Part shown: positions 5,597 through 17,487 of the stretch, piece after piece
How positions within the stretch are numbered: the stretch's first letter is position 1
Layout of the letters: each line of letters opens with the position of its first letter
Virus record (IMG/VR): IMGVR_UViG_3300043436_004382
Location: 1-64,000 of that record
Direction: 5' to 3' (one strand)
Source of the DNA: a virus
DNA: 64,000 nucleotides
Position numbers and translations under genes: made by a program
The notes under the pieces: generated by a model
The model's input: only the letters and a program-made list of their open reading frames with translations
Told to the model about the DNA's origin: nothing
Databases searched by the model: none

Positions 5597-5681
5597 TGGT
5601 GCGGATGAAGGGACTCGAACCCCCACGTCGTGAAACACTAGATCCTAAGTCTAGCGCGGCTACCAATTACGCCACATCCGC
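5597..5681 (-). tRNA. tRNA-Leu (anticodon TAG), class II with long variable arm, CCA encoded
   Basis: Reverse complement gives GCGGATG-TG-GCGTAATTGGTAGCCGC..CTAGA-CTTAGGA-TCTAG..long variable arm..GGGGGTTCGAGTCCCTT-CATCCGC-ACCA. Confidence 0.75.
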
Positions 5682-5800: not shown

Positions 5801-6280
5801 TTAAACGGTGTGCGGTATCTGAACTCTCACACAAGTTTGAGGTTGGTGCTCATTCATCAAGAAATTATTGATGTAGCCCATAATATTGGCTGCTCCAATC
5901 GGATTCGCTGAGTGCACATAAACTTGTGGAAATCTAATCTGTAGGCCAATCTTTCTAAGTCTTGAGGTATCCAACGCTTCTGGGTACAAATCATAGAAAT
6001 AGTTAACCAACCATTTAGCACAATCGTATCCAGTTTTCTCCGTGATATTATTATAGTCAAGAGTGTAGTTAGGACTCACGTTATTGAAGTATTCTGACAT
6101 TGCTGAGTCACCCAGGTCGTGATCCAATGAGATCATGTGAATGTTATCTAATCCAAGTTCTTTCACCTTGTCAACGAACTCCTGATAGTTTCTAACCACT
6201 ATCCAATCTCCGCCGGCTGGATCAATTTTCGGTGTACGTACATCATCTAAGTAAATGCGAACTAATTTATTCTCCTCCAT
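5801..6280 (-). CDS. Hypothetical protein (IYLDDVR ... ISLDHDLGD motifs)
   Basis: 159-aa ORF immediately upstream of an RNA ligase; function not recognised. Confidence 0.45.
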   Translation of the reverse strand: MEENKLVRIYLDDVRTPKIDPAGGDWIVVRNYQEFVDKVKELGLDNIHMISLDHDLGDSAMSEYFNNVSPNYTLDYNNITEKTGYDCAKWLVNYFYDLYPEALDTSRLRKIGLQIRFPQVYVHSANPIGAANIMGYINNFLMNEHQPQTCVRVQIPHTV

Positions 6281-7343
6281 TTAGTAAAAATTTATTTGAA
6301 ATTGCTTTAAACGAAATTTTTCGATCGTGACTTCTGATAACAACTCCCTCTCTATCAAAATTTGGATTAAGTGTTGATTTTGCATCAGCGTAGTCAAGCA
6401 ATTGATCTATTGTATCAGGCAAAGTGAATTCGGTTTCAACGATTGGAACAATTGGTAAACCCAATCCCAAGATTAATTTAGTAAACTCTTCAAATCCCAA
6501 GTATTCTTGAGTATCAATATTGAATGCATTAAAGAAGTAAACCGCTTGGCCTCTTAATTTATACGGGTTCTTTTGAATTCCCTCACCCACTAATTCTCCT
6601 TGAATGCAGATATTGTAGCCAACTGACTCTAATTTAGTCTTAAGCTCCATTTCTCTAGCGACTTTCCAAAAAGTATTTTCATCGGTCTCAAGCAGTTCCA
6701 AATTACGGGAACAGGCTCCAAACTCTCCGTCCTTTAGGTAGAAAGTTGCGGACGATCCGTCCAATTTCTCAGTTACGTAAAAGGCCCGATCTTTCCAACT
6801 TTCGTAATGATCGGTTAAGTTCTGTACGCGCTCCTCATCAGTCTTGTGAATGAATGATGGGAACATGCCTTTAACCTTACCGGCTAATTCTGCTGGAATT
6901 GGCGGCTCATACTTAAGCACGCACATGTACTCTGTAACATCAGATCCTTCTTCGATAACTATTGCATTATCATAGGGTCCAAGCTGAAGTTGATCTCCCC
7001 AAGGCTGTTTACTGATTCCGATCTTCATTTCATCGCCCTTTTCCAAGACACTTAATGGTAAACACAGGCCTTGTGAAACTTGCCCCCTAAGTCTAATGGT
7101 TTTTAATCTGAATCCCTCTAAGTCTCCCATCTTTTTATATGAAGACTTTCTTAGGAATTCAAATTCTTTCTCCATTGGTAGAAACGAATCTATTTCAAAA
7201 TAAACGCAAAGGTCGCCCTCTGTGAATTCGCCTTTTTTTGCAACGACGTTCCAGCTATTGATCTGAACGATTTCAATTGCATCAGCCCCATCAATCGGTT
7301 TGATTGCACGGACTCTTTGAATGCTTGCTAATTTTCTTTCCAT
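6267..7343 (-). CDS. ATP-dependent RNA ligase with an N-terminal OB-fold-like RNA-binding domain (DRB0094/Rnl-type)
   Basis: Nucleotidyltransferase motif I VTEKLDGSS (KxDG). The N-terminus SIQRVRAIKPIDGADAIEIVQINSWNVVAKKGEF resembles a tRNA-binding OB fold. Confidence 0.7.
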   Translation of the reverse strand: MERKLASIQRVRAIKPIDGADAIEIVQINSWNVVAKKGEFTEGDLCVYFEIDSFLPMEKEFEFLRKSSYKKMGDLEGFRLKTIRLRGQVSQGLCLPLSVLEKGDEMKIGISKQPWGDQLQLGPYDNAIVIEEGSDVTEYMCVLKYEPPIPAELAGKVKGMFPSFIHKTDEERVQNLTDHYESWKDRAFYVTEKLDGSSATFYLKDGEFGACSRNLELLETDENTFWKVAREMELKTKLESVGYNICIQGELVGEGIQKNPYKLRGQAVYFFNAFNIDTQEYLGFEEFTKLILGLGLPIVPIVETEFTLPDTIDQLLDYADAKSTLNPNFDREGVVIRSHDRKISFKAISNKFLLNGGE

Positions 7344-7346
7344 TTT

Positions 7347-7649
7347 TTAATCTTTTATTTTTAAAATTAAGGTACCCCAACCGAGGCCAATCCAAAATTT
7401 GAACCAAATGACTTCTACACCAATCATTAAGTTAGGTGAGTGCGTATCCTTCCATAACCATTTAGGCAAACCTTTGGTTGAACCTACCGTTCGGTACGTT
7501 TTCCACCAAATTCCCAATCTTCTCTCAAGCGTCCACTTTCGTTTGTCCCACCAATTATGGTCAGTTTCCTCCTCCCATTGGTGTCTGAGCACTAGGTCGA
7601 TCTTAAGTTGACCCAGACTAGCGTGAAGGCCGTGATTACTCTTTCTCAT
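7347..7649 (-). CDS. Trp-rich hypothetical protein
   Basis: 100-aa ORF. Confidence 0.35.
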   Translation of the reverse strand: MRKSNHGLHASLGQLKIDLVLRHQWEEETDHNWWDKRKWTLERRLGIWWKTYRTVGSTKGLPKWLWKDTHSPNLMIGVEVIWFKFWIGLGWGTLILKIKD

Positions 7650-7869
7650 GGCTTGAGTTTTTGATTATTGTGTAGGTTCCGCATACTGTTACTACTTGTG
7701 GATCTCCACCGCAATTGCACTCGTTCTTAAATACGATACAGCCGTTCGCGTCCTTTGTATAGGAATCTGTCGCGTATTGGCCGCCTTCGCCGCTAATCGT
7801 GTACTTTGCCTGTTTTCCGCAGCTTGTGATAACTAAACTGATGAATATAAGTAAAACTAAATTTTTCAT
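7636..7869 (-). CDS. Small putative lipoprotein
   Basis: Signal peptide MKNLVLLIFISLVITSC with a lipobox-like ITSC. Confidence 0.5.
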   Translation of the reverse strand: MKNLVLLIFISLVITSCGKQAKYTISGEGGQYATDSYTKDANGCIVFKNECNCGGDPQVVTVCGTYTIIKNSSHEKE

Positions 7870-7870
7870 A

Positions 7871-8488
7871 TTATTTTAATTGTTTACGATAAAAAATTAC
7901 ATCATAGTGAGGAGCAACAAAATTAGCCCACTCAGCTGAAGATACTTCGTATGAATATCCTAACTTACTCAATTTTTCTATGATTTCTTTAGTTTTAGGT
8001 ATCAAATCTTCATTTAAGAAATCATGGAATTCTACAGTAATTTGATTTATTTTTGAGTAGGTTTCGTCTTGGATGTTGTTCAATAACTCATATTCTGAAC
8101 CTTCAATATCAATTTTTAATAAATCAATTTCAGTAATGTCGTTTTCTTTAATTATTTCGTCTAACGTTATTGTCAACACTTCATGTTTGACTCCATCGAA
8201 ATAATTAAAAATAGTTGAGCCATTATATGGCGAATTACTATCTTCGTAAAATTCAACAAGTTGATTTTGATTGTTTGAAATGACTCTATTATAGAGAACG
8301 TAATTATCTTTTTTGGGAATTTCGGAAAAATTTTTGAAGGAAGCTTCAACGAGTATAGCTTTCTTTAATTTATATACGTCTTCCATTTTCGTTGTAAACT
8401 CTCCTTTGCATGCTCCAAGATCTATAATTACAAGGTTTTCATTAAAGTACTCATCGAAAAAGGTATGTTCTTGAATATTGTTTTTCAT
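7871..8488 (-). CDS. FkbM-family SAM-dependent methyltransferase
   Basis: VIIDLGACKGEFT resembles the FkbM DIGANIGEF signature. Confidence 0.6.
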   Translation of the reverse strand: MKNNIQEHTFFDEYFNENLVIIDLGACKGEFTTKMEDVYKLKKAILVEASFKNFSEIPKKDNYVLYNRVISNNQNQLVEFYEDSNSPYNGSTIFNYFDGVKHEVLTITLDEIIKENDITEIDLLKIDIEGSEYELLNNIQDETYSKINQITVEFHDFLNEDLIPKTKEIIEKLSKLGYSYEVSSAEWANFVAPHYDVIFYRKQLK

Positions 8489-8489
8489 A

Positions 8490-9062
8490 TTAATCGTTAA
8501 ATAAGTTTACTAAGTAGCTAAACATTTCAAAATAGGGATGAGTGTTCGTATCATCGTATCCTAATTTTACCATGAAGTTATCATTCTCTTTCCGGTACAT
8601 CTCAAACATTCGACTGCCCGTCATCTTTGAGTACTGCACATTAGCGATACGATCGCATAACTTAACGAACACCGCGCCGGGAGTATTTCTGATTCCTTCA
8701 TAGTACTTGTCATTCGCGCGCTCATTACGGTTTTTACCTTTCTCATTAGTAACCGCATAGACGATATCAGCAGCCTCTTGACCAAGTATGGACTTTACGT
8801 CATTGTACGAAACTCGACAATCCTCTATTAAATCATGACCCCATGCTGCTCGCAAGCAGGCGGTTCTTAGTGTGACTGTCCTATCATTTCCACGATCGAT
8901 CTCACGAACTCCTGTGAAGTAGTCAACCTTATCGTCTAACAGGTGCCTGTACTTATCCGCAACATGAGCTACCATTCGTAAATGAAACTCGTAAGGTAGG
9001 TACGTATCGTACATGTGATTTGTTTCTGTGTGCTGATTAATGCACCATTGTGATGTGTTCAT
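8490..9062 (-). CDS. HD-domain (p)ppGpp hydrolase (small alarmone hydrolase, RelA/SpoT hydrolase family)
   Basis: HLRMVAHVA ... AAWGHDLIED (equivalent to AALLHDxxED) and KLCDRIANV (equivalent to DRLHNMRT). Confidence 0.65.
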   Translation of the reverse strand: MNTSQWCINQHTETNHMYDTYLPYEFHLRMVAHVADKYRHLLDDKVDYFTGVREIDRGNDRTVTLRTACLRAAWGHDLIEDCRVSYNDVKSILGQEAADIVYAVTNEKGKNRNERANDKYYEGIRNTPGAVFVKLCDRIANVQYSKMTGSRMFEMYRKENDNFMVKLGYDDTNTHPYFEMFSYLVNLFND

Positions 9063-9063
9063 A

Positions 9064-9801
9064 TTATTCCTCCATTGTTGGTTTCAACCAAATCTTTGTC
9101 ATAAAAATGTATTCAAATAGCGCAGGATACCTCATTAATACTCTGAGAGTTTCGGCAGTATCGTGTTTGAAACATTTAAGTAGTTCTTCCCTGATTCTCT
9201 CAGCTGATACGACTGCCATGAATACTTCATAATCGAAGTGCTTGATGTGCTGATGCATTTCAGCTGTGATTACAAAGCCCTTAGTGATCATGAACCTGAT
9301 CGCTCTTAGGATTCTCAAAGGATCGTCCTTGAAAGTAACCTCGCAAGGTAACGGTGTTCTAAGAACTCCATTTTTCAAATCCTCAATTCCGTTGAATGGA
9401 TCAATCAACGCTCCGTTCTCGTCCTTGGCTATTGCATTGAGCGTGAAGTCACGTCTTTCCAAGTCATCGAATAGAGTTCCTGGCTTGACGATTGGTGTTC
9501 TTGTAAAAGGTACGTATCCAATCTCTTTTCTGGCCATTACGAAATCCGCAACTCCCTGGTACTTGTGACCTTCTGGAAATTTAGCCCTGATCGTATAACA
9601 CTCTGCTGTTACCAAAAAGATCTGAAACTTCTCACGAGTCAAGTAGTCAACCAGAACTTCAAATAGGTCAGCCGCTTCCGGAAATTCTTCAATTAAAGAA
9701 TCCTTGGGCACGGCAACGAAATCAACGTCCTTTGACTGGACTCCAAGAATCTCGTCCCTGACCTTTCCACCAACTTCATAAAATTTAAAAAACGGTTTCA
9801 T
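9064..9801 (-). CDS. tRNA nucleotidyltransferase / poly(A) polymerase head domain (CCA-adding enzyme-like)
   Basis: GGKVRDEILG..DVDF, RRDFTLNAIA and DPLRILRAIRF class II nucleotidyltransferase motifs. Confidence 0.75.
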   Translation of the reverse strand: MKPFFKFYEVGGKVRDEILGVQSKDVDFVAVPKDSLIEEFPEAADLFEVLVDYLTREKFQIFLVTAECYTIRAKFPEGHKYQGVADFVMARKEIGYVPFTRTPIVKPGTLFDDLERRDFTLNAIAKDENGALIDPFNGIEDLKNGVLRTPLPCEVTFKDDPLRILRAIRFMITKGFVITAEMHQHIKHFDYEVFMAVVSAERIREELLKCFKHDTAETLRVLMRYPALFEYIFMTKIWLKPTMEE

Positions 9802-9818
9802 ATTTTTTAATATACTAA

Positions 9819-10487
9819 TTATCGGCCTTCATTTGTTTCATGGTGATCGTTTGGCAAAACCAAGCACCTAACTGGGCGATCCCTCATGATCTTTGCGATC
9901 TCCTGTAGAGAGTAAGGGCTTAGGTCATTACCGTCCATTCCAACGTCCATTGCTTTGCCTGCATGTATTTTATTCTCTGGGCCCAAGTGAACGTGACCGT
10001 GTAGGTGAATGACTCCACGATTCATATCGTGCCAGCTTGCAATGGGATAATGACACATGACCAAGGTCTTTTTAATGACCTCGCCTGGGTTTATTGAATT
10101 GGGTTCGTTTGGAATCGTAAGCTCAAGTCTCAAGTACTCGTGTACCGAACTGAACAACTTTTGGATTCCTCCCTTGTCCCTCTCGATGTGTTGGTCGTGA
10201 TTTCCGAGCAGGAGATGAATGTTCTTACACAGGATTCTCTGCCTAAACTCGGCTATATTCTCGTATCCTCCGAATGACCAGTCTCCCAAGTGGAATAGAA
10301 TATCGTCCTCCCTAACCAGGTGATTGATGTTGTTGATTATCGCCTCATTCATCTGCTCTAAGGTATCGAAATCCCTAGTCTTGCTTGACTCTGGCCAATT
10401 AGAGGTTCCCCTACAGATATTTGAGTGTTTATAGTGAGTGTCTGATGTAAACCAGATACGCTGATGTGGCTGTAATGTAATTTTCAT
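9819..10487 (-). CDS. Calcineurin-like metallophosphoesterase
   Basis: SDTH, LGDWSFGG, GNHD and HGHVH motifs. Confidence 0.7.
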   Translation of the reverse strand: MKITLQPHQRIWFTSDTHYKHSNICRGTSNWPESSKTRDFDTLEQMNEAIINNINHLVREDDILFHLGDWSFGGYENIAEFRQRILCKNIHLLLGNHDQHIERDKGGIQKLFSSVHEYLRLELTIPNEPNSINPGEVIKKTLVMCHYPIASWHDMNRGVIHLHGHVHLGPENKIHAGKAMDVGMDGNDLSPYSLQEIAKIMRDRPVRCLVLPNDHHETNEGR

Positions 10488-10496
10488 AGATATAAT

Positions 10497-10700
10497 TTAC
10501 TCTTCCTCTTGCCAAATTAGACCGTCTCCTTCAATTAAAATGTCGTCAGCTATATCCGCTAACATGTCGGGTGCCTCAATTAGAGCATCATCATTTTGAC
10601 ATATACACTCCCCAGGCCCATGACTTTCAAAGTACTTGGTGAGTTTGGCAATAGCAGCCTCCCTCTTTTCCGGAGTCCAGATTACTTTCCAATTTCTCAT
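10497..10700 (-). CDS. Hypothetical small protein
   Basis: 67-aa ORF. Confidence 0.3.
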   Translation of the reverse strand: MRNWKVIWTPEKREAAIAKLTKYFESHGPGECICQNDDALIEAPDMLADIADDILIEGDGLIWQEEE

Positions 10701-10709
10701 TGATAAATT

Positions 10710-10964
10710 TTAAATTTCATTTTCTTTGCAATACCTCAAGTAGAGAGCCTGCTGCCTGATTCCGAACTCACGAGTCAATAGGTTTGCTGGTGCTCCCTCA
10801 TTCACGACGAATGTGACGTAGCCTGCCATTCGTTGAGCATCAAATTCCTTTACTCGACCTTGCACTTTTCCAGTTGCCGGATCAGCAATCAGTCGAATTG
10901 CATTCGTTAAGTCTTTAGCGGTTTCGCAAAGATTGACCGCTTTAAATTTTTCTAGTTCTGTCAT
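10710..10964 (-). CDS. Hypothetical small protein
   Basis: 84-aa ORF. Confidence 0.3.
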   Translation of the reverse strand: MTELEKFKAVNLCETAKDLTNAIRLIADPATGKVQGRVKEFDAQRMAGYVTFVVNEGAPANLLTREFGIRQQALYLRYCKENEI

Positions 10965-11206
10965 TTCATTTGAATTAAATACTTATTTCTAACTTCAAGA
11001 GCGAGCCGACGTTGAGTGAATGTCGAAGGAGTTTCCATTCCACCTAGCGCTGACACAAAGTGATCAATCTCCTCTTCGGTCGCATGCTCACAGATGTAAT
11101 CATACTCCTCGTCAGTTATGTTAAATGCGGCCTTTATTGCATTATCGAATAGGTCTAGTATTCCACCCTTTGCTGCAAAGTTTATTTCATCTCTTATATT
11201 CTTCAC
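10961..11206 (-). CDS. Hypothetical small protein
   Basis: 81-aa ORF. Confidence 0.3.
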   Translation of the reverse strand: MKNIRDEINFAAKGGILDLFDNAIKAAFNITDEEYDYICEHATEEEIDHFVSALGGMETPSTFTQRRLALEVRNKYLIQMK

Positions 11207-11210
11207 TGTT

Positions 11211-11405
11211 TTATATGTCTTGTTTCAATATTTTTAAAACTTCTTGATTTATTTTTTTCCAATCCTCAAGGGTCACGGGGAACTTTTCATTTTCGGTTCC
11301 GCCGATCGTTATGTCAACGTAATCAGTATGAGCGACAACGTCCATGTACTGACCTGCCGATTCAAAAGATATTTGCTCAACTCTAACCTTGATGCTCGAT
11401 TCCAT
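11211..11405 (-). CDS. Hypothetical small protein
   Basis: 64-aa ORF. Confidence 0.3.
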   Translation of the reverse strand: MESSIKVRVEQISFESAGQYMDVVAHTDYVDITIGGTENEKFPVTLEDWKKINQEVLKILKQDI

Positions 11406-11479
11406 TCTATGCTGGATTTGTTATATTGTGGTGTTTATATATAACCGTTATATTCAATTTTGATAAAATTTTGATTTAT

Positions 11480-11737
11480 TTATAATTTTATACTTCGTTG
11501 TTGTATAATGTCAATCCAAGTTTTTAGTATAGTCGCATTATTTCGATTTGGTTTTCCATTTTCAACTGAAGATAGGTATTTTTGAAAAAAATACTTTAAA
11601 CTATCAACATCAGATAATTTGCAACCTGGTAATGATACATCAACCTCTTTATTATCGAGAATATACTCGTTTTTGTAATCTAATTCGTTCATAATATTAT
11701 TTGTTTGGTTTTTAAAACTTGTACAAAAATTTGTCAT
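11480..11737 (-). CDS. Hypothetical small protein
   Basis: 85-aa ORF. Confidence 0.3.
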   Translation of the reverse strand: MTNFCTSFKNQTNNIMNELDYKNEYILDNKEVDVSLPGCKLSDVDSLKYFFQKYLSSVENGKPNRNNATILKTWIDIIQQRSIKL

Positions 11738-11767
11738 TAATAATATACTATAAAAACAAAAAACTGA

Positions 11768-12286
11768 CTACTCAGTGTAGTCAGTGTTCATGATCTCGAT
11801 TGCATAAGAATTTACGATTGGTCTTCCTGTATTGTAACAACCAAGCGCAACGTCCCAGCCACCGTACTTCTTTTTTAAGTGAGCGAGCAACTTCATTGAG
11901 GTCTCAACGTTAAGCTCTAGATCGGTCAGTAATTTCTTTGATGTAATCTTTTTCTTGCCTCCCCAAATGAAATTTGCAGTTGGCACCTGAATCTGCATGG
12001 CACCATAGGCGTTGGCTGATGAAGTCAATTTTGGATTGTACCTCCAATGAAATGGTCCGCCGTAACGAGTCTCCTTATGAGCGACTCCCATTGCGATTCT
12101 AAACGGTACTCCATATTCGGCAGAGTACTTCTTTAGGTAGTCGTACATTTGGATACACGGTGGAGCGTGTTGAATGTCCATCGCTCCGTCCGGTAGTCCA
12201 TCTGATTCTTGACTCATTTCATAAGCCCACACTGCTCCAAATAGCATGACGCAGAAGAGGATTACTATGGTTCTTAATGAAAACAT
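11768..12286 (-). CDS. Lytic transglycosylase (SLT domain) with N-terminal TM/signal
   Basis: SLT-family signatures GVAHKETRY and AYGAMQIQ. Confidence 0.65.
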   Translation of the reverse strand: MFSLRTIVILFCVMLFGAVWAYEMSQESDGLPDGAMDIQHAPPCIQMYDYLKKYSAEYGVPFRIAMGVAHKETRYGGPFHWRYNPKLTSSANAYGAMQIQVPTANFIWGGKKKITSKKLLTDLELNVETSMKLLAHLKKKYGGWDVALGCYNTGRPIVNSYAIEIMNTDYTE

Positions 12287-12292
12287 CTGAAA

Positions 12293-12661
12293 TTACTTTT
12301 GTGCAGGAACTGCTTGTTTGTAAATACGATTCGCATAGAGATTGAAGATGACCATGCCAACTGAATCTTGATAGATTGAATAGATACCGGTCTTACGGTC
12401 AATCACCAATAGCTCATTTCGTTCGTTAATCGCAACCGATGTAGTCGTTAGCGGTTTGATATTGTCCCATTGGGTCTTATCAACCTTGTTTGTCATTACC
12501 CAGTAATAATAACCAATGAAGAATCCTGCAACTAGTGCAATCACCAGCATTAGTAGGTTACCGAGTTTTTTTGCGAACGCACTTAATTTATCAAGCGCTG
12601 CAGTCAAAATTTGTTTTTTATCCATAACGTAAGTTTTTGGGTTTGATATTAATATACCCAA
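12293..12661 (-). CDS. Membrane protein
   Basis: TM helix LLMLVIALVAGFFIGYYYWVM. Confidence 0.4.
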   Translation of the reverse strand: MGILISNPKTYVMDKKQILTAALDKLSAFAKKLGNLLMLVIALVAGFFIGYYYWVMTNKVDKTQWDNIKPLTTTSVAINERNELLVIDRKTGIYSIYQDSVGMVIFNLYANRIYKQAVPAQK

Positions 12662-12678
12662 AATCTGACCGGATTATA

Positions 12679-13539
12679 TTAATGGCCGTTGGTTGAAGTA
12701 TTATAGAATACAAGACCAGTAACGTTGGTCGTTTTTGTGATAGTTGGAGTTGAGTAGTTGAAAGTTAGAACATCACCACCTCCATTTTCGCCGAATTGAA
12801 TTCTGATTGGATAGTATACTCCAGCAGTCAAAGCAATTGACCCTGAAAGTTCTAACGTTCCATGTAATCCACCGTTATTTACAGTTGCGTTAGAGGTTGT
12901 GAATCCGCTAACTGCATTACTTCCAACCCAAACGTATGAGGCATCATCACTTGATGTAAAAAAAGTATAGGTTTCGGTTGTGGTAGGTTTAAAATAGCCT
13001 AACCATTGACAACTGAACACGGATCCATCGTCCGTTGCTGCTTCCGTAATTGAGGTAGTTTGCACCGAAGTTGCAGGATTTGAGCCAAAGGCTTGAGGCG
13101 TAGCCGTAGCAAAGAAGTTAACGTTATCTAAACTAGGTGTTCCGCTTAATGATCCAAAATAACCAGTATAAGTTGTCTTAAAGAGCCCGGCAGCATAAGG
13201 TATAAAGGTTGTATAGAAGCCGTTTGCTAGCAGCCAGGTTCTGGCTGCGGCTGCCGATGCAAATGCAGTAGTTCCAAATCTTCTAGCTTGACTGTTAGCT
13301 AGGTTCAAGAAAGCCTGATCAGTCAGACCAGCTGACCTCCAAAACTGAGGGTCTGTTCCATTCTGTCTGACTATTAAATATCCGAGATCTTCGTCAGGAC
13401 TCATCCACCAAGTGACTGAACCTGGCCGATTGGACCATATTGTGGTCGGTGTGCCTGTTCCAATCGCAAAGTTTCCGCTTTGAGTCGTTCCGGTGATTGC
13501 TGAGCCTAGATTAATTGCATAAGGTCTATAAGTTGGCAT
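12679..13539 (-). CDS. Virion fibre/adhesin-like protein with a C-terminal PA14-like domain
   Basis: N-terminal domain (..GTGTPTTIWSNRPGSVTWWMSPDEDLGYLI..) is shared with the 18176..19312 protein. C-terminus YVWVGSNA...GVYYPIRIQFGENGGGDVLTFNYS is PA14-like. Confidence 0.5.
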   Translation of the reverse strand: MPTYRPYAINLGSAITGTTQSGNFAIGTGTPTTIWSNRPGSVTWWMSPDEDLGYLIVRQNGTDPQFWRSAGLTDQAFLNLANSQARRFGTTAFASAAAARTWLLANGFYTTFIPYAAGLFKTTYTGYFGSLSGTPSLDNVNFFATATPQAFGSNPATSVQTTSITEAATDDGSVFSCQWLGYFKPTTTETYTFFTSSDDASYVWVGSNAVSGFTTSNATVNNGGLHGTLELSGSIALTAGVYYPIRIQFGENGGGDVLTFNYSTPTITKTTNVTGLVFYNTSTNGH

Positions 13540-13584
13540 AGTTCTAAATACTTTCGGTTATTTATTCACCGCGCCACCGGCAGA

Positions 13585-14580
13585 CTAGGCTTTGATGGAA
13601 TACTGATCGAGCCAGTATTGAATCATTTCATCCAACATTGTTTCAAACGTGTAATCATGAGACCACCCAGTAGCCCTAACCAATTTGCTTGGATCTCCCT
13701 TTAGATCATGAAGTTCTTCAGGCCTAAGAAACTTCTCATCAGTTTTGACCCAGTCTTGCCAATTCAATTCCAGTTTAGAAAAGACGTATTCGCATAGATC
13801 CCTAACCGAATGGGATACTCCAGTTGCGCAAACAAAATCTCCAGGCTTATCCAATTGTAGAATTTCCCACATTGCTCTAACGTAATCCTTGGCATGACCC
13901 CAATCTCGAGTCGCACCCAGATTACCGAGTCTAAGTTCATTAGAAAGACCTAACTTGATCTTCACGGCCTCCTTACACACCTTATTGGTAACGAAATTCG
14001 TTCCGCGTCTTGGAGACTCGTGATTGAACAGGATTCCGTTAGACACGTACATGTTATATGAATTTCTGTAATTTCTTGAAATATTATAAGAAAACACTTT
14101 TGCACAACCGTAAGGGGAAACCGGATTCATTTGAGTCGTTTCTCTTTGGTAACCGTCCTTGTCTATTGAATTACCGAACATTTCTGAAGAAGAGGCTTGA
14201 TATACTCTAGAGTCAGGCTTAATCATTCTTACGGCTTCAAGCAGATTTAGCGTGCTTAATCCAGTTGCATGGGCCGTGTATACGGGTTGATCAAAGGAAA
14301 TCCTAACATGTGATTGAGCAGCTAAGTTATAGATCTCGTCTGGCATAATCTCTTGAACAACTCTGATCAGCGACGACAGATCAGTAACATCAGCATAGTG
14401 AAGTTTAACCCTTGCATAAATATCATCGGCCAATCGGGCCGTTTGATTCTCAGAAATTGAATTTCTTTTTAATGTTCCGTGTACTTCGTATCCCTTGTCC
14501 AATAGGAATTCTGCTAAGTACGAACCGTCCTGTCCGTTTATTCCGGTGATTAGCGCTTTTTTATTTTCTTGCTGTTTCAT
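13585..14580 (-). CDS. gmd: GDP-mannose 4,6-dehydratase
   Basis: ALITGINGQDGSYLAEFLLDKGYEVHG N-terminus and overall similarity to Gmd. Confidence 0.85.
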   Translation of the reverse strand: MKQQENKKALITGINGQDGSYLAEFLLDKGYEVHGTLKRNSISENQTARLADDIYARVKLHYADVTDLSSLIRVVQEIMPDEIYNLAAQSHVRISFDQPVYTAHATGLSTLNLLEAVRMIKPDSRVYQASSSEMFGNSIDKDGYQRETTQMNPVSPYGCAKVFSYNISRNYRNSYNMYVSNGILFNHESPRRGTNFVTNKVCKEAVKIKLGLSNELRLGNLGATRDWGHAKDYVRAMWEILQLDKPGDFVCATGVSHSVRDLCEYVFSKLELNWQDWVKTDEKFLRPEELHDLKGDPSKLVRATGWSHDYTFETMLDEMIQYWLDQYSIKA

Positions 14581-15463
14581 AATTGTCTATAAACCATTTT
14601 ACTGTTTCCTTAAGGCCTTCCTCAATTGGAGTGAATTTAAAATCCGGTAGATAACTCTTTAACTTTGAATTATCTGAAGGTTTTCGGTGTTGACCGTTGG
14701 GTTTCGTTTTATCGAATCTTACTGCACCTTTAAAATTGAATGCATCCACTAGGAGCTCAACAACTTCTGCTATTGAAATTTCTTCTGATGTGCTAAGTAT
14801 CAGAGGTTCAGCCTCATCGTAATTGTCTACCGCCCATTCCGCTAGTCGAGCCACGTCCTTTGAGTATATGAATTCTCTAAGAGGCGATCCATCTCCCCAA
14901 ATAAAGAGCTCGCTATTGTTCTGTTGTGCCTGATAAATCTTGTACATCAACATTGGAATGACATGTCCATGAGTCATCGAAAAATTATCGTTCGGCCCAT
15001 AGATGTTACATGGAATTACTGAAGTGTATTTCACGCCGTACTGTTCGCGATACGCTCTGATCTGAATGTCTGACATTCTCTTTGCATAGGCATAGGGATA
15101 GTTAGATGAGTGAGGTTCGCCTAGATGAATTTTCTTTTCCGTTAATGGATACTCAATTGAGTCCGGAAAAACACAAGTGGAGAGAAATGCTACTAGATTA
15201 GTAACTCCTGCTTTACGAGCCTCCTCAATGACATTGGTGTTAATCATCAAGTTATCATAGAAGTATTCTCCCTTGTAGTTCATGTTTCCGCCAAGACCCC
15301 CGACCTTACCTGCGCAGTGTATGACATGAGTGGGTTTATGAATTTCAAAAGCTTTTGCAGTTTGAGTTGAGTTGACTAGGTCAAACTCTCTACCGATCTT
15401 AACGTCGGCCTCTATCGCTGACCCAACGAGACCGTTGCCGCCAGTTACGAGTAATTTACGCAT
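14561..15463 (-). CDS. fcl: GDP-L-fucose synthase (GDP-4-keto-6-deoxymannose 3,5-epimerase/4-reductase)
   Basis: LLVTGGNGLVGSAI Rossmann motif, YAYAK catalytic motif, adjacent to gmd. Confidence 0.8.
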   Translation of the reverse strand: MRKLLVTGGNGLVGSAIEADVKIGREFDLVNSTQTAKAFEIHKPTHVIHCAGKVGGLGGNMNYKGEYFYDNLMINTNVIEEARKAGVTNLVAFLSTCVFPDSIEYPLTEKKIHLGEPHSSNYPYAYAKRMSDIQIRAYREQYGVKYTSVIPCNIYGPNDNFSMTHGHVIPMLMYKIYQAQQNNSELFIWGDGSPLREFIYSKDVARLAEWAVDNYDEAEPLILSTSEEISIAEVVELLVDAFNFKGAVRFDKTKPNGQHRKPSDNSKLKSYLPDFKFTPIEEGLKETVKWFIDNYETARK

Positions 15464-15490
15464 AGTGAATTAAGTTTTTATATTATACTC

Positions 15491-16627
15491 TCAATCAGCT
15501 AACTGGTTCCAAAAAGGTTTTTGATATTCAGGGCGAATCATTCTCCAAATTGCTTGATCATAATCTTTACCCTGTAACATTGAAAAGACAAGACCTTGAT
15601 ATTCGGTTGGGCAATTCGCTTGAATCCATAGTGCATCCTCCTTTTTGGTATTGAGTGGCTGGCTTAGTAATTCAGCCAAGATCTTTTTTGCATCAATTTC
15701 CTTCATTACAAAAGCAAACTTAAGAGCCCGAATCCAATCTCTAACCCATGAATCAAACTCGTCTGGCACGCTCTCAAGGTATTGACTTAAGTCATCTCCG
15801 TTTCGTAAGCAATCCCAAATGTCAAGGTTAGAAAAATTAGTCAGTAGTCTGTGTAACCTAACGTACTCGTCGAACTTGATCTTTATTCTATAATTGGATG
15901 GGTGGAATCTTAGGACAAAACCCTCCTTTCCAAATTCATTTAGGGCCTTTAGACTGCCAAATAATCCACGATCTATTGTGTTAATTGCGGTAGTAACAAT
16001 ATCCTCTTCAAGAATGCCAGATGAGTGAAATAGAGCTCTCGCTGTTCCCCAATTTACTTCACGACCGTCCATGACGGCTGACAGAAACATGAGCTTTTCT
16101 TCTGCATAGTCAACGACTATCCGGTTCTCAGGATAAATGATTTCACACACATAACTTACAGTCGGATGGAACTTGTCAAGATTGTACTTGGCCTTGAGTA
16201 TTTCAAGACCTGCCTTGGCCTGCTCAGATTCAAAGGATCCTCGAGTTGCCATGTGCCAATCATTGCTATAGTGAAATAGGATTCCCAAAGATCCGTCCAT
16301 TTTTTCTTGCACATAAACGTACTCGTCATGTAACGGAATCTCGCCCTTATGCTCAACTTCTTCGTAATTAAAGAACTTATTGAATCCTCGAGCAACTATC
16401 TTGTCCTCATGATCCAATATCAAGCCACGACACTGCAAAGTTACTGAGTCCCAACGCTGTTCGAATTGGCATTCTCTTGAGTAATTATAAATGGTAAGTG
16501 GAAGCGTCGGATGATCCTTTGCTTCCACTAATCCGTTATCAACATAAGGTTGTATTATTGCTCTAGTTAAGATCATAATCTTTGGTTTTTTCAATTTGCT
16601 GCCACAAGACTCCGTCAAATCCTTCAA
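15491..16627 (-). CDS. RNA ligase 1 (T4 RnlA-like)
   Basis: 378 aa (T4 Rnl1 is 374 aa). Motif I VQEKMDGSLGILF (KxDGSL). TGA stop. Confidence 0.65.
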   Translation of the reverse strand: MKDLTESCGSKLKKPKIMILTRAIIQPYVDNGLVEAKDHPTLPLTIYNYSRECQFEQRWDSVTLQCRGLILDHEDKIVARGFNKFFNYEEVEHKGEIPLHDEYVYVQEKMDGSLGILFHYSNDWHMATRGSFESEQAKAGLEILKAKYNLDKFHPTVSYVCEIIYPENRIVVDYAEEKLMFLSAVMDGREVNWGTARALFHSSGILEEDIVTTAINTIDRGLFGSLKALNEFGKEGFVLRFHPSNYRIKIKFDEYVRLHRLLTNFSNLDIWDCLRNGDDLSQYLESVPDEFDSWVRDWIRALKFAFVMKEIDAKKILAELLSQPLNTKKEDALWIQANCPTEYQGLVFSMLQGKDYDQAIWRMIRPEYQKPFWNQLAD

Positions 16628-16753
16628 TCATGTAGCGACTTACAATATTATAAAATGCCATGACCTCTTTAATCCGGTCTAGGCTCGGTGAAAATGCTAT
16701 TCCGTGCGAGTGGCCTCTAACCTCTCGATACTGTGCTCGGTACTCTATGAAAA

Positions 16754-17074
16754 TCATGAGGTTAGTAATTGAATAAGTAGATAAGACAATTTGTAACCGG
16801 TGAAAGCACCCAGGGCAGAAGGAATTGGAAATACAATTAGCTTTCCTAGGTGAGTTACATATTTAGGCCGATTCACGATTGTACCCATGTAAAAGTAGTA
16901 GGCGATGTATCCAAGCAGTACAGCAATATCCGTTCGAGTCGCAATGAACACGACTAGCATTGCACCAATGAAACCGAATGTGAAGTTGTCCCGGATTCCT
17001 TCCCAAACCTCTTCAGCAGTAGCGTCATTCCAATCTTTTACTATTTGCCTGAATGTTGCTCTCTGTTTTCTCAT
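16754..17074 (-). CDS. Membrane protein
   Basis: Three predicted TM segments. Confidence 0.4.
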   Translation of the reverse strand: MRKQRATFRQIVKDWNDATAEEVWEGIRDNFTFGFIGAMLVVFIATRTDIAVLLGYIAYYFYMGTIVNRPKYVTHLGKLIVFPIPSALGAFTGYKLSYLLIQLLTS

Positions 17075-17487
17075 AACTTAATTTCAAATCGGTCTCTCAT
17101 CTCCTGTACCTTCTCATCGGGTACTCCGTGCACGTTCTTGCCACCATGACGATTCTCAACGATTAAGGAAACTACATGGTACTCGAATTGCTTTGCTAAA
17201 TCTAGATATGCCTGCATCTCCCATTCTCTAGTGAATGTGTTTGACACTATAATTTCCGGATAGTATTGACCTGCACTTAGGTGGTTCTGTTCCATTGCCT
17301 CTTGTACAGATCGACGACACCATTCATGTGCGTCCTTTAATTTTGAACCGTCGAATTTATATTGACCGTCCTCATCATAGAAGAACTTATCGGCTTCAAA
17401 CACTACTCCGCTTGACCACATGTGATTTGCGAAAGTGCTCTTGCCTGAACCTGGAACTCCACGTAGGAGAATTAATACTCTACTCAT
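17071..17487 (-). CDS. P-loop kinase, polynucleotide kinase-like (T4 Pnk kinase-domain-like)
   Basis: LLRGVPGSGKST Walker A in a 138-aa protein adjacent to RNA ligase 1. Confidence 0.6.
   Translation of the reverse strand: MSRVLILLRGVPGSGKSTFANHMWSSGVVFEADKFFYDEDGQYKFDGSKLKDAHEWCRRSVQEAMEQNHLSAGQYYPEIIVSNTFTREWEMQAYLDLAKQFEYHVVSLIVENRHGGKNVHGVPDEKVQEMRDRFEIKL

What the first reader, a model, noticed from the sequence alone, without database searches (positions are those of the whole stretch)
5801..17487. Dense RNA end-healing and sealing toolkit near the tRNA genes
Within 12 kb there are two different RNA ligases (OB-fold KxDG ligase at 6267-7343 and T4 Rnl1-like at 15491-16627), a Pnk-like P-loop kinase (17071-17487), a calcineurin-like phosphoesterase (9819-10487) and a CCA-adding enzyme head domain (9064-9801). 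A 2H phosphoesterase (43281-43832) lies farther away. In T4, Pnk and Rnl1 repair tRNAs cut by host anticodon nucleases. The redundancy here suggests defence against several host tRNA-targeting nucleases (PrrC, RloC or VapC-like), possibly rebuilding 3' CCA ends too.
Basis: partly seen in the sequence, partly recalled or inferred. Interest (0 to 1): 0.65.

Follow-up and report, generated by a model that had tools for sequence, protein, structure and literature searches.

The report
Phage tRNA repair gene set

Summary
Ligase 1 is an Rnl5 (DraRnl/NgrRnl) nick-sealing ligase and ligase 2 is Rnl1-family. The 138-aa kinase models as a polynucleotide-kinase fold. The phosphoesterase keeps all metallophosphoesterase motifs. 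The CCA enzyme is a short head-plus-neck form.

- a cREC "cyclic-phosphate processing" gene overlapping the Rnl5 stop;
- a Mesh1/small-alarmone-hydrolase (SAH) gene abutting the CCA gene;
- a Ro60 gene followed by tandem Y-RNA-like tRNA mimics at 19.4-21.8 kb.

The "12 kb toolkit" is two blocks split by about 4 kb of sugar, lectin and lysis genes, which are shared only with near-identical relatives.

Across 48 Rnl5 lineages, Mpe, Rnl1, Kin and cREC recur nearby (14-21 lineages each, against 1-4 for control genes). They often form a tight Rnl1-Mpe-Kin cassette.

The best reading is an RNA (mainly tRNA) end-healing, sealing and 3'-end maintenance set. The two ligases are complementary rather than redundant. 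The CCA enzyme also has an obvious maturation role, because 14 of 22 phage tRNA genes lack an encoded CCA.

This kind of toolkit was described by Iyer et al. 2021, so this is a new member of a known kind.

The parts
5597..5681 (-). tRNA-Leu(UAG), 119 nt downstream of cREC; the last element of the lower block
   Evidence: ARAGORN; Rfam tRNA 56 bits; the gene encodes CCA.
5801..6280 (-). cREC (cyclic-phosphate-processing receiver) protein; its start overlaps the Rnl5 stop by 14 nt. It is a predicted, never assayed, 2',3'-cyclic phosphate or cADPR phosphoesterase.
   Evidence: Pfam PF20274, 73 bits against GA 27. D12, D13, D53-H-D, E81-K-T-G and H123-S-x-N are invariant in 13 homologues. It lies near Rnl5 in 14 of 48 lineages, always on the same strand. 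cREC-ligase operons are described in PMC7824862.
6267..7343 (-). Rnl5-type (DraRnl/NgrRnl) ATP-dependent nick-sealing RNA ligase: N-terminal OB domain plus nucleotidyltransferase domain
   Evidence: KLDG (motif I) and the SFKAIS lysine of motif V align to NgrRnl.
7347..7649 (-). 100-aa Trp-rich protein of unknown function. It is adjacent to Rnl5 here, in L003-L005 and in the more distant L181.
   Evidence: No Pfam hit. Synteny. Whether it belongs to the toolkit is uncertain.
8490..9062 (-). Mesh1/small-alarmone-hydrolase (SAH)-type HD phosphohydrolase, 1 nt downstream of the CCA gene. It is a candidate 3'-(pyro)phosphatase for tRNA ends or an alarmone hydrolase.
   Evidence: Profile search against the PDB: Mesh1 3nqw 1.5e-11, SAH 6yvc and 6z3n about 3e-10. 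H27, H76-D77 and E80-D81 (HDxxED), D137 and N141 are invariant. It is adjacent to the CCA gene (5-158 bp) in 6 lineages and close to cREC, Rnl5 or Mpe in others. It is absent from the 94 % relatives L004 and L005.
9064..9801 (-). Short (245 aa) class II tRNA nucleotidyltransferase (CCA-adding type): head plus neck, with no body or tail domains
   Evidence: Pfam PolyA_pol and PolyA_pol_RNAbd. PHROG 24229, a 245-position head-only family, 1.6e-57. PDB CCA enzymes at about 1e-21. NCBIfam scores are all far below the equivalog cut-offs.
9819..10487 (-). Binuclear metallophosphoesterase of the aq_1665 family (Mpe); the inferred 3'-phosphate / 2',3'-cyclic phosphate end-healing enzyme
   Evidence: 1xm7, 1.8e-20. 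Motifs are invariant. It lies near Rnl5 in 21 of 48 lineages. Where both genes are present, it lies within 480 bp of Kin in 9 of 11 lineages.
15491..16627 (-). Rnl1-family RNA ligase (true start probably Met18, near 16576)
   Evidence: It is adjacent to Kin or Mpe in most other lineages and in cultured Aeromonas phage phiA009.
17071..17487 (-). Stand-alone polynucleotide-kinase-like P-loop kinase (5'-OH end healing) with no phosphatase domain
   Evidence: Walker A, D33 and R133 are invariant. Profile search against the PDB: PSTK, T4 Pnk, Cth Pnkp, Pnkp1. The AF2 model has pLDDT 84. The top 20 Foldseek hits are all Cth Pnkp kinase (TM 0.70) or T4 Pnk. Kin and Rnl1 hit different parts of one 737-position PHROG, 8238.
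43281..43832 (-). 2H phosphoesterase, distant from the cluster; either a 2',3'-cyclic phosphodiesterase for RNA ends or an Acb1-like signal degrader
   Evidence: Two HxT motifs. Pfam and NCBIfam hits are below cut-off. No PDB sequence hit. A 54 % homologue lies between Rnl5 and Mpe/Kin in L064.
20126..21751 (-).
   Evidence: Pfam TROVE 28.1 (GA 23) and vWA_Ro60 28.3 (GA 27.7). There are 14 viral homologues, all embedded among tRNAs.
19393..20044 (-). Tandem Y-RNA-like units downstream of Ro60. U1 (19697-19823) and U2 (19551-19689) passed the automated screen. U0 (about 19966-20044) and U3 (about 19393-19529) were identified by eye only. Each unit is a two-part stem around conserved UAGYAA / GUUACUUC / ACUUUCU boxes, enclosing a variable tRNA-like insert.
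   Evidence: Rfam YrlA below threshold (32 bits, GA 69); tRNA model positions 3-68. Units listed. Covariation: helix 1 is 94 % paired, all 6 pairs carry double changes, 0 of 500 shuffles reach the score. Exact U1-box matches in IMG/VR all follow Ro60. Terminator-like hairpin at 19361-19381.
25024..25162 (-). A further Y-RNA-like unit (U4: T-arm, hairpin, D-arm insert) inside the tRNA array
   Evidence: 13 of 14 stem positions complementary.
22232..25811 (-). Array of 19 tRNA genes. The window has 22 genuine tRNA calls in all, and only 8 of them encode their CCA.

Best explanation
This is the RNA (chiefly tRNA) repair and maintenance complement of a large uncultured phage. The phage probably infects Bacteroidota and is related to the 630-735 kb 'huge phages'. 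The complement is organised as two co-directional gene blocks next to the phage's tRNA array.

Inferred pathway:

1. A host ribonuclease cuts a tRNA and leaves a 2',3'-cyclic phosphate and a 5'-OH.
2. The cyclic or 3' phosphate is removed. Candidates are the metallophosphoesterase, helped or replaced by cREC, the 2H enzyme or the SAH-type HD enzyme.
3. The stand-alone Pnk-like kinase phosphorylates the 5'-OH.
4. The break is sealed. The Rnl1-family ligase acts on breaks in loops and the Rnl5 ligase acts on nicks inside base-paired stems.
5. At the 3' end, the short CCA-adding enzyme completes or rebuilds CCA. The adjacent SAH can strip a blocking (pyro)phosphate of the kind that toxSAS/CapRel defence enzymes add.
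6. Ro60 and its tRNA-mimicking Y-like RNAs provide RNA quality control or scaffolding.

Shown here: gene identities, intact catalytic residues, the kinase fold, conserved gene linkage, and RNA covariation. Inferred only: every substrate and every step of the pathway, and that the purpose is counter-defence.
For: - Domain and clade assignments, with catalytic motifs intact.
- Kinase fold matches polynucleotide kinases.
- HD enzyme is Mesh1/SAH-type with HDxxED.
- Conserved same-strand linkage of Rnl5 with Mpe (21), Rnl1 (18), Kin (18), cREC (14), CCA (7) and HD (6) out of 48 lineages, against 1-4 for control genes.
- Kin, Mpe and Rnl1 are directly adjacent in most lineages.
- The L041 operon adds an exoribonuclease and two HAD_SAK_2 'RNA repair' phosphatases.
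- L181 keeps the order Mpe-CCA-HD-s100-Rnl5-cREC at 51-82 % identity.
- SAH-CCA adjacency recurs in 6 lineages.
- Rnl1 and Kin overlap in cultured phage phiA009, and Mpe follows a tRNA cluster in Flavobacterium phage immuto.
- Tight spacing (17 nt or less, or overlaps) from Mpe to cREC.
- Literature: phage RNA-repair complements and cREC (PMC7824862); SAHs restore pyrophosphorylated tRNA CCA ends (10.1101/2021.04.30.441581); the phage SAH PaSpo neutralises toxSAS (PMC9712102); Rnl5 biochemistry (PMC4408790, PMC5397189).
- The T4 Pnk/Rnl1-versus-PrrC paradigm is established knowledge.
Against: - No activity of any of these proteins has been measured.
- The aq_1665-type phosphoesterase family and cREC have never been assayed on RNA ends.
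- The physiological role of Rnl5 is 'uncharted', and its loss in Deinococcus affects radiation resistance (PMC5397189), so a nucleic-acid repair role outside tRNA is possible.
- HD and FkbM are missing from 94-97 % identical relatives, so they are dispensable accessories.
- The 2H gene is 26 kb away and is equally close to Acb1 in Pfam.
- 14 of 22 phage tRNA genes lack CCA, which explains the CCA enzyme without invoking repair.
- The two blocks are separated by unrelated genes and a terminator-like hairpin.
- The host and its nucleases are unknown.
Confidence: 0.75

Rival explanations
1. Housekeeping for the phage's own tRNAs rather than counter-defence. The CCA enzyme completes the many phage tRNAs whose genes lack CCA. 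The kinase, phosphoesterases and ligases process or recycle phage tRNA and Y-like RNA precursors.
For: 14 of 22 tRNA genes lack an encoded CCA. The genes flank a 19-tRNA array and tRNA-Leu. Mpe follows a tRNA cluster in Flavobacterium phage immuto. The Y-like RNAs contain permuted tRNA modules.
Against: No intron-containing or split tRNA was called, so nothing obviously needs kinase-plus-ligase processing. Hosts already have a CCA enzyme. In the best-studied case (T4) the same enzyme trio works in repair of nuclease damage (established knowledge). In most lineages the linkage is to each other rather than to tRNAs: only 12 of 48 SAH lineages have a tRNA within 6 kb.
Confidence: 0.15
2. The phosphoesterases (cREC, 2H, Mpe, SAH) mainly destroy small-molecule immune or stress signals rather than heal RNA ends. 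Targets would be cyclic nucleotides, cADPR-type signals and (p)ppGpp or (p)ppApp. Only the ligases and the kinase would then be RNA-directed.
For: Pfam and Iyer et al. define cREC as acting on cADPR or 2',3'-cyclic nucleotides. The 2H protein scores as well against Acb1 as against LigT. SAHs are alarmone hydrolases by family. The window also encodes a Tad6-like Thoeris inhibitor.
Against: These genes are physically linked to RNA ligases, the Pnk-like kinase and the CCA enzyme across many lineages. SAHs have been shown to act on tRNA 3' ends.
Confidence: 0.12
3. The genes have unrelated jobs and are merely neighbours in an accessory-gene region. Rnl1 would act as a tail-fibre attachment factor (as T4 gp63 also does). 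Rnl5 would seal RNA-primed nicks in replication or DNA repair. The kinase would act on nucleotides or DNA.
For: PHROG 562 is annotated 'RNA ligase and tail fiber protein attachment catalyst'. The DraRnl knockout is radiation-sensitive (PMC5397189). Pnk-type kinases also phosphorylate DNA. The two blocks are interrupted by unrelated genes.
Against: Linkage is recurrent, same-strand and often overlapping across 48 lineages, well above control genes. The families co-occur with dedicated RNA-repair HAD phosphatases and an exoribonuclease. Catalytic ligase motifs are retained.
Confidence: 0.06

Closest known systems
T4 Pnk (PseT) + Rnl1 repair of PrrC-cleaved tRNA-Lys
   Same: An Rnl1-family ligase with all nucleotidyl-transfer motifs. 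A P-loop kinase whose nearest folds are T4 Pnk and Cth Pnkp. The inferred logic is the same: heal both ends, then seal.
   Different: The kinase is a 138-aa stand-alone protein without the HAD 3'-phosphatase domain. 3' healing is delegated to an unrelated metallophosphoesterase and other phosphoesterases. The Rnl1 homologue is distant (1e-7 to T4 Rnl1, NCBIfam equivalog score 57 against 242). A second ligase, of Rnl5 type, is present.
Bacterial Pnkp-Hen1 RNA repair system (Clostridium thermocellum; Pnkp1/Rnl/Hen1 of Capnocytophaga)
   Same: The same three chemistries: polynucleotide kinase, binuclear metallophosphoesterase and ATP-dependent ligase. The kinase model's best structural match is the Cth Pnkp kinase domain (TM 0.70). 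In many related phages the three genes are contiguous.
   Different: The three activities are separate genes, not one polypeptide. The phosphoesterase is aq_1665-type, with no detectable specific relation to the Pnkp phosphatase. There is no Hen1. The neighbouring FkbM methyltransferase is unrelated to Hen1 and is absent from a 97 % identical relative.
Rnl5 nick-sealing RNA ligases (DraRnl, NgrRnl)
   Same: Full-length homology (2.6e-73 to NgrRnl), the same OB-plus-NTase architecture, and a score above the NCBIfam equivalog cut-off.
   Different: It is phage-encoded, translationally coupled to a cREC gene and embedded in an end-healing gene set. The cellular enzymes have no assigned pathway.
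Jumbo-phage RNA-repair complements and cREC-ligase operons (Iyer, Anantharaman, Krishnan, Burroughs, Aravind 2021, PMC7824862)
   Same: Large tRNA sets with multiple non-redundant ligases, kinases, calcineurin-like or HD phosphatases, 2H, a CCA-adding enzyme, TROVE/Ro protein and cREC next to ligases. Essentially every component class found here is listed there.
   Different: This is an uncultured, unannotated genome with no nucleotide match among 50,697 phage records. It has a particular combination: Rnl5 + Rnl1 + aq_1665-type Mpe + an SAH-type HD abutting a head-only CCA enzyme + a multi-unit Y-like RNA array.
Ro60-Y RNA modules (Salmonella rsr-yrlBA-rtcBA operon; mycobacteriophage YrlA; Thermus phage phiLo Ro60-Yrl1/2)
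   Same: A Ro60 gene followed on the same strand by small RNAs containing tRNA-like T and D arms. One unit weakly matches Rfam YrlA. The module is associated with RNA-repair genes.
   Different: By inspection, the 5' box is UAGYAA rather than the published GNCGAAN0-1G. Rfam YrlA scores 32 against GA 69. There are at least two scored tandem units plus two seen by eye, and one more in the tRNA array. The inserts are interchangeable: a near-complete tRNA, a permuted T/D module, or (in relatives only) none. The partner ligases are Rnl1 and Rnl5, not RtcB.
Small alarmone hydrolases that reverse toxSAS action (MESH1, ATfaRel; phage SSU5 PaSpo)
   Same: A Mesh1/SAH-type HD fold family with an intact HDxxED motif; phage-encoded like PaSpo.
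   Different: Here and in at least 6 viral lineages the gene abuts a CCA-adding enzyme, and it often lies near cREC, Mpe or ligases. That suggests an RNA-end role. No activity is known for this subfamily.

Membership tests
Rnl5 (DraRnl/NgrRnl) RNA ligases | N-terminal OB-fold module fused to a C-terminal nucleotidyltransferase domain, with no C-terminal OB | tested here: met
   PF21189 at residues 5-97 plus PF09414 at 188-347. TIGR02306 covers 5-354 above its cut-off. Two-segment alignment to 5cot.
Rnl5 (DraRnl/NgrRnl) RNA ligases | Motif I lysine (KxDG) and the motif Ia, IV and V residues | tested here: met
   KLDGSS, CSRNLEL, QGELVGEGIQ and SFKAIS align to the NgrRnl counterparts.
Rnl5 (DraRnl/NgrRnl) RNA ligases | Seals 3'-OH/5'-PO4 nicks in duplexes whose 3'-OH strand is RNA | not testable with these tools
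   Biochemical property (PMC4408790, PMC5397189).
Rnl1 (T4 RnlA) RNA ligases | Nucleotidyltransferase motifs I, III, IV and V | tested here: met
   KMDGS, cEiiYP, EGFV and IKIK align to T4 K99, E159, E227-G228 and K240/K242. PF09511 scores 65 bits against GA 28.
Rnl1 (T4 RnlA) RNA ligases | Orthology-level similarity, including the C-terminal tRNA-specificity domain | tested here: inconclusive
   TIGR02308 scores 57.5 against a cut-off of 242. The PDB alignment stops at residue 269. PHROG 562 aligns positions 20-366 of 377.
T4-type bifunctional polynucleotide kinase-phosphatase (Pnk/PseT) | P-loop kinase domain with a catalytic Asp | tested here: met
   GVPGSGKST and invariant D33. Foldseek: T4 Pnk 5e-5, TM about 0.6.
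T4-type bifunctional polynucleotide kinase-phosphatase (Pnk/PseT) | C-terminal HAD-type 3'-phosphatase domain on the same polypeptide | tested here: not met
   The protein is 138 aa. The 120 best of 5,722 homologues are all stand-alone proteins of 136-148 aa.
Bacterial Pnkp-Hen1 | A single kinase-metallophosphoesterase-ligase polypeptide partnered with a Hen1 2'-O-methyltransferase | tested here: not met
   The genes are separate. TIGR04075 scores only 17 bits on the kinase. The Mpe profile hits only aq_1665. The methyltransferase is FkbM-type and is absent from L003.
Class II CCA-adding enzymes | Head-domain motifs (GGxVRD, DxD, RRD, (E/D)DxxR) | tested here: met
   GGKVRD, DVDF, RRDFT and DDPLR. 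PF01743 scores 67 bits.
Class II CCA-adding enzymes | Body and tail domains that hold the tRNA; full-length equivalog score | tested here: not met
   245 aa only. Every NCBIfam CCA, A-adding and PcnB model scores far below its cut-off. The short form is conserved (PHROG 24229; homologues of 240-272 aa). Whether it adds CCA, CC or A cannot be told.
Small alarmone hydrolase / Mesh1 (RSH hydrolase HD) | HD domain with the His...HDxxED...D/N metal and catalytic residues | tested here: met
   H27, H76-D77, E80-D81, D137 and N141 are invariant. The profile hits Mesh1 and SAH structures at 1e-11 to 1e-9. A single-sequence Pfam HD_4 hit scores below GA.
cREC | Match to PF20274 with the conserved receiver-like acidic residues | tested here: met
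   73 bits against GA 27. D12, D13 and D53 are invariant. The enzymatic activity is a published prediction only.
2H phosphoesterases (LigT / Acb1) | Two HxT/S motifs | tested here: met
   HTTLLYG and HATIGYL.
2H phosphoesterases (LigT / Acb1) | Assignment to a subfamily (RNA-end CPDase or Acb1) | tested here: inconclusive
   2_5_RNA_ligase2 scores 21.4 and Acb1 20.8, both under GA 27. No PDB hit. The homologue's position beside Rnl5 in L064 favours an RNA role.
Ro60 / YrlA Y RNAs | Ro60: TROVE plus vWA domains | tested here: met
   Both are just above their Pfam cut-offs.
Ro60 / YrlA Y RNAs | RNA reaches the Rfam YrlA gathering score | tested here: not met
   32 bits against GA 69. The RNA therefore works like a Y RNA (Ro60-linked, tRNA mimic, closing stem with covariation) but is not a YrlA member.
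Ro60 / YrlA Y RNAs | RNA carries the published 5' GNCGAAN0-1G motif | tested here: inconclusive
   By inspection of the listed units the conserved 5' box is UAGYAA. The published motif (PMC4201824) was not searched for with a pattern tool.

The most novel reading that the evidence does not exclude
Beyond the textbook heal-and-seal enzymes, this phage lineage may run a dedicated tRNA protection system with two undescribed elements.

(a) A recurrent SAH-plus-minimal-CCA-enzyme gene pair. It would unblock and rebuild tRNA 3' ends attacked by toxSAS/CapRel-type pyrophosphorylation or by CCA-trimming nucleases. This would be a split, non-homologous analogue of the NTase-HD architecture of E. coli Cca.

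(b) A new Ro60-linked class of modular Y RNAs. A covarying closing stem with UAGYAA / GUUACUUC / ACUUUCU boxes holds interchangeable tRNA-like inserts. These could act as decoys for tRNA-targeting nucleases or as scaffolds that bring the repair enzymes to damaged tRNAs.
Probability: 0.25. Interest if true: 0.7.

Novelty: new member of a known kind. Interest (0 to 1): 0.4.

Why it matters
tRNA-targeting defences are a fast-growing area; known examples include PrrC, RloC, PARIS, retron-associated nucleases, Cas13 and CapRel/toxSAS. Phage counter-measures have been shown experimentally only for T4 Pnk/Rnl1 and for substitute tRNAs.

This locus and its relatives offer a compact, conserved candidate set: Rnl1-Mpe-Kin, Rnl5-cREC and SAH-CCA. 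Two of its members, cREC and the aq_1665-type phosphoesterase, have never been assayed. One member, Rnl5, has well-known biochemistry but no known physiological pathway.

If Rnl5 is shown to work with cREC, Mpe and Kin on nicked tRNA stems, that would finally give the widespread Rnl5 family a pathway. The finding itself, however, repeats a pattern already catalogued by comparative genomics.

Tried and rejected
- **Nucleotide search.** Megablast of the region against 50,697 phage records found nothing. All comparisons therefore had to be made at protein level.
- **Promoter scan.** The sigma-70 scan was at chance (41 sites found, 41.6 expected). It is probably the wrong model for a Bacteroidota-type host, so it was not used.
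- **Single-sequence PDB searches.** These gave nothing for the kinase and the 2H protein. A profile search rescued the kinase.
- **HD as the split-off HD domain of an E. coli-type Cca.** Rejected. It has no hit to the multifunctional-Cca NCBIfam model or to Pfam HD. Its profile matches Mesh1/SAH.
- **FkbM methyltransferase (7871-8488) as a Hen1-like repair-junction methylase.** Rejected as unsupported. It is a precise one-gene indel missing from the 97 % identical L003. Among all loci it appears otherwise only as one weak 26 % hit on a single contig (L041 and L154). A link to the GDP-sugar genes at 13585-15463 is as plausible, but was not tested.
- **'tRNA-SeC(tca)' at 19730-19802 as a suppressor tRNA.** Rejected. 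It matches only positions 3-68 of the tRNA model. It sits inside a Y-like stem, and by my reading of the sequences its 'anticodon' varies among orthologous units.
- **Covariance model of the Y-like stem.** Model R1 could not span the 30-110 nt inserts and gave only fragments at E > 1.
- **Structure prediction with locus-derived alignments.** cREC was therefore not modelled.
- **MFE folding of one Y-like unit.** No more stable than shuffles (z = -0.23). The support for the structure is covariation, not energy.

Full report
**What the window is.**
Almost every gene is on the minus strand and GC is about 40 %. There are 23 tRNA-type calls, 19 of them in an array at 22.2-25.8 kb. The region has no nucleotide match among 50,697 phage records. 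The Rnl5 ligase and the topoisomerase II subunit are closest to 630-735 kb 'uncultured phage' records, at 46-57 % identity. An identical 4.3 kb contig exists in a public run. Near-identical and diverged relatives occur on IMG/VR contigs of up to 373 kb. A protein with a type-9-secretion sorting domain hints at a Bacteroidota host. So does the phosphoesterase's closest cultured relative, at 60 % identity, in Flavobacterium phage immuto.

**Check of the observation.**
- Ligase 1 (6267-7343) has the PHA02142 OB domain plus the RNA_ligase domain. It scores above the curated cut-off of the DraRnl equivalog TIGR02306. It aligns end to end with Naegleria NgrRnl at 2.6e-73, with KLDG, motif Ia, motif IV and motif V conserved. 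It is an Rnl5-family ligase.
- Ligase 2 (15491-16627) belongs to Pfam RNA_lig_T4_1 and PHROG 562. It aligns to T4 Rnl1 with the motif I lysine, motif III glutamate, motif IV EG and motif V KxK in place. It is distant, however: its NCBIfam equivalog score is far below cut-off.
- The kinase (17071-17487) has Walker A GVPGSGKST and an invariant Asp33.
  - A family profile finds PSTK, T4 Pnk, Cth Pnkp and Pnkp1.
  - An AlphaFold model (pLDDT 84, pTM 0.80) has only polynucleotide kinases among its top 20 Foldseek matches. The Cth Pnkp kinase domain reaches TM 0.70 and T4 Pnk about 0.6.
  - It has no phosphatase domain. The 120 best of 5,722 homologues are stand-alone proteins of 136-148 aa.
- The phosphoesterase (9819-10487) keeps all six metallophosphoesterase motifs across 19 homologues. 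Its only solved relative is the uncharacterised Aquifex protein aq_1665.
- The nucleotidyltransferase (9064-9801) has the class II head motifs and the neck. It is a conserved short form without body or tail domains.
- The 2H protein (43281-43832) has two HxT motifs, but its subfamily cannot be assigned.

Its start overlaps the Rnl5 stop and its receiver-like acidic residues are invariant.
- The ORF abutting the CCA gene (8490-9062) is not a Cca-type HD. It is a Mesh1/small-alarmone-hydrolase homologue with an intact HDxxED signature.
- An FkbM methyltransferase follows (7871-8488).

**Architecture.**
The lower block runs Mpe, CCA, SAH, FkbM, two small ORFs, Rnl5, cREC, tRNA-Leu. Its gaps are 17 nt or less, or overlaps, except for 119 nt before tRNA-Leu. 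The upper block runs ClpP, Kin, a small membrane-like ORF, Rnl1. It continues into a GDP-sugar epimerase, GDP-mannose dehydratase, a PA14/GLEYA protein and an SLT lysozyme. It ends at a strong terminator-like hairpin at 11763-11785. So the '12 kb toolkit' is two sub-clusters separated by about 4 kb of RNA-unrelated genes.

**Is the association real?**
I fetched 80 viral loci around Rnl5 homologues and searched them with every window protein. After dereplication to 48 lineages:

| Gene | Lineages with a homologue within 10 kb of Rnl5 (of 48) |
|---|---|
| Mpe | 21 |
| Rnl1 | 18 |
| Kin | 18 |
| cREC | 14 |
| CCA | 7 |
| SAH | 6 |
| Controls (ClpP, PA14, GMD, epimerase, SLT) | 1-4 each |

The linked genes are almost always on the same strand. 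The sugar, lectin and lysis genes co-occur only in the 94-97 % identical relatives.
- Where Kin and Mpe both occur, they are within 480 bp in 9 of 11 lineages. Rnl1 touches one of them in 7 of 10. The canonical form is therefore a tight Rnl1-Mpe-Kin cassette, which this lineage has had split by an insertion.
- L041 shows the fullest version. It runs Rnl1, Mpe, Kin, Rnl5, a 3'-5' exoribonuclease, two HAD_SAK_2 'Swiss-army-knife RNA repair' phosphatases and cREC.
- L064 places the 2H homologue between Rnl5 and Mpe/Kin.
- L181 keeps the window's order Mpe-CCA-SAH-s100-Rnl5-cREC at 51-82 % identity.
- In cultured phages, Rnl1 and Kin overlap in Aeromonas phage phiA009. The Mpe homologue follows a tRNA cluster in Flavobacterium phage immuto.
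- Kin and Rnl1 also match different parts of one 737-position PHROG (8238), which hints at fused forms.

**The SAH.**
A second set of 80 loci around SAH homologues (48 lineages) shows a CCA gene within 6 kb in 10 lineages. In six of these the two genes are 5-158 bp apart. They occur in either order and always on the same strand. cREC (10), Rnl5 (11) and Mpe (6) are the other frequent neighbours.

Published work shows that SAHs (MESH1, ATfaRel) restore aminoacylation of tRNA whose CCA end was pyrophosphorylated by the toxSAS FaRel2. A phage SAH, PaSpo, neutralises toxSAS toxicity. A role at tRNA 3' ends is therefore plausible, though hydrolysis of (p)ppGpp or (p)ppApp is equally in character for the family. 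The gene is absent from the 94 % identical relatives L004 and L005, so it is an accessory.

**CCA enzyme: repair or maturation?**
Only 8 of the 22 genuine tRNA genes encode their CCA. The enzyme therefore has an obvious maturation job. Repair of trimmed ends is possible, but nothing here demands it.

**Ro60 and the Y-like RNAs.**
Downstream of Ro60, Rfam finds a truncated tRNA match (model positions 3-68). This is the element ARAGORN called 'tRNA-SeC'. Rfam also finds a sub-threshold YrlA match with the permuted T-arm-then-D-arm order typical of bacterial Y RNAs.

Inspection showed a repeated architecture: stem 1, UAGYAA, stem 2, GUUACUUC, a variable insert, stem 2', ACUUUCU, stem 1'. Two units after Ro60 (U1, U2) and one inside the tRNA array (U4) passed the automated screen. 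Two more after Ro60 (U0, U3) are by-eye identifications only. After filtering there are 27 units (26 distinct mini-sequences) in the window and the Ro60 loci. Regex hits in unrelated loci lack the complementary stems.

On a fixed-register alignment:
- Stem 1 is paired in 94 % of cells, and all six pairs show double changes.
- The covariation score is 0.80 against 0.25 in shuffles (0 of 500 reach it).
- Pairing falls to 36-52 % when the register is slid.

One caveat: units were selected, and their 3' boxes placed, partly by complementarity. That inflates these numbers somewhat.

The exact U1-type box occurs six times in all of IMG/VR. Five of these lie 80-250 nt after a Ro60 gene, and the sixth is cut off by the locus edge.

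Y RNAs next to phage Ro60 are known (PMC4201824; Thermus phage phiLo). Iyer et al. note TROVE proteins in jumbo phages. These units fail the Rfam YrlA threshold and, by inspection, carry a different 5' box from the published GNCGAAN0-1G. I regard them as a sequence-distinct variant.

**Mechanism.**
Steps 1-4 below follow the T4 Pnk/Rnl1 and bacterial Pnkp paradigms (established knowledge).
1. Metal-independent host nucleases leave 2',3'-cyclic phosphate and 5'-OH ends.
2. The 3' end is healed. Candidates are Mpe, cREC, 2H and SAH.
3. Kin phosphorylates the 5'-OH.
4. The break is sealed by Rnl1 (loops) or Rnl5 (nicks within duplex, per PMC4408790 and PMC5397189).
5. SAH and the CCA enzyme maintain the 3' end.
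6. Ro60 and its Y-like RNAs act in quality control.

Only identities, motifs, fold and linkage are shown here. Every substrate is inferred.

**Comparison with what is known, and verdict.**
Each component class, and the idea that multiple ligases are specialised rather than redundant, is already laid out for jumbo phages in PMC7824862. The locus is therefore a new member of a known kind.

Two points go beyond the catalogue: the recurrent SAH-CCA gene pair and the modular Ro60-linked RNA array. Both need experiments. Interest is moderate (0.4).

Noticed in passing
window 19393-20044 and 25024-25162 (minus strand); L083-L094, L097, L100: A Ro60-linked family of Y-RNA-like units. A covarying two-part closing stem surrounds conserved UAGYAA / GUUACUUC / ACUUUCU boxes and holds interchangeable inserts: a near-complete tRNA, a permuted T-arm/D-arm module, or (in relatives only) nothing. 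It is not matched at threshold by any Rfam family. Window units U0 and U3 were identified by eye only.
   Followed up: yes
window 19730-19802: ARAGORN's 'tRNA-SeC (anticodon tca)' is most likely not a decoding or suppressor tRNA. It appears to be the tRNA-like insert of Y-like unit U1: it matches tRNA model positions 3-68 only. By my reading of the sequences, the 'anticodon' differs among orthologous units in relatives.
   Followed up: partly
window 20126-21751: Ro60 (TROVE + vWA) gene between the kinase block and the tRNA array. Its homologues in 14 viral contigs are all embedded among tRNA genes.
   Followed up: yes
window 7871-8488: The FkbM-family methyltransferase is a precise one-gene insertion between the SAH gene and a small ORF. 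It is absent from a 97 % identical relative (L003). Its role is unknown. It may relate to the GDP-sugar genes 5 kb away rather than to RNA.
   Followed up: partly
window 22232-25811 and other tRNA genes: Only 8 of 22 phage tRNA genes encode their 3' CCA; 14 need it added after transcription.
   Followed up: yes
window 28007-28696: A protein matching Pfam Tad6 (Type I Thoeris inhibitor) at 8e-22, a separate anti-defence gene.
   Followed up: no
window 23323-23781: An RNaseH_like (PF04308) protein is encoded inside the tRNA array.
   Followed up: no
window 30354-31037: A second, unrelated calcineurin-like metallophosphoesterase (Metallophos 1e-14), next to an SPFH/Band 7 protein (29250-30086).
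   Followed up: no
window 12679-15463 and 18176-19312: A sugar and lectin gene set: GDP-mannose 4,6-dehydratase, an NAD-dependent epimerase, a PA14/GLEYA protein and a LamG protein with a Thr/Pro/Ala-rich repeat linker. The two lectin-like proteins share an N-terminal segment at about 40 % identity. They probably act in glycan recognition or modification.
   Followed up: no
window 41876-43290: PRPP synthetase and a 4HBT thioesterase lie immediately upstream of the 2H gene; a possible nucleotide or NAD-salvage context.
   Followed up: no
window 37885-39807; 54200-54745; 55699-56304: A Cohesin protein with a type-9-secretion C-terminal sorting domain, plus two ECF-like sigma factors. Together with the Flavobacterium and Cellulophaga phage similarity of Mpe, this points to a Bacteroidota host.
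   Followed up: partly
window 62000-64000: GC rises to 52 %, and a plus-strand HTH + serine-recombinase (Resolvase) ORF appears at 62855-63667. This may be a mobile element or a module boundary.
   Followed up: no
window 61319-61396: A weak tRNA call (Rfam 37 bits) with the unusual anticodon ACT (Ser), far from the main array.
   Followed up: no
window 7347-7649: A 100-aa Trp-rich ORF with no family match stays next to Rnl5 even in the diverged relative L181 (54 % identity). It could be an unrecognised partner of the ligase.
   Followed up: partly
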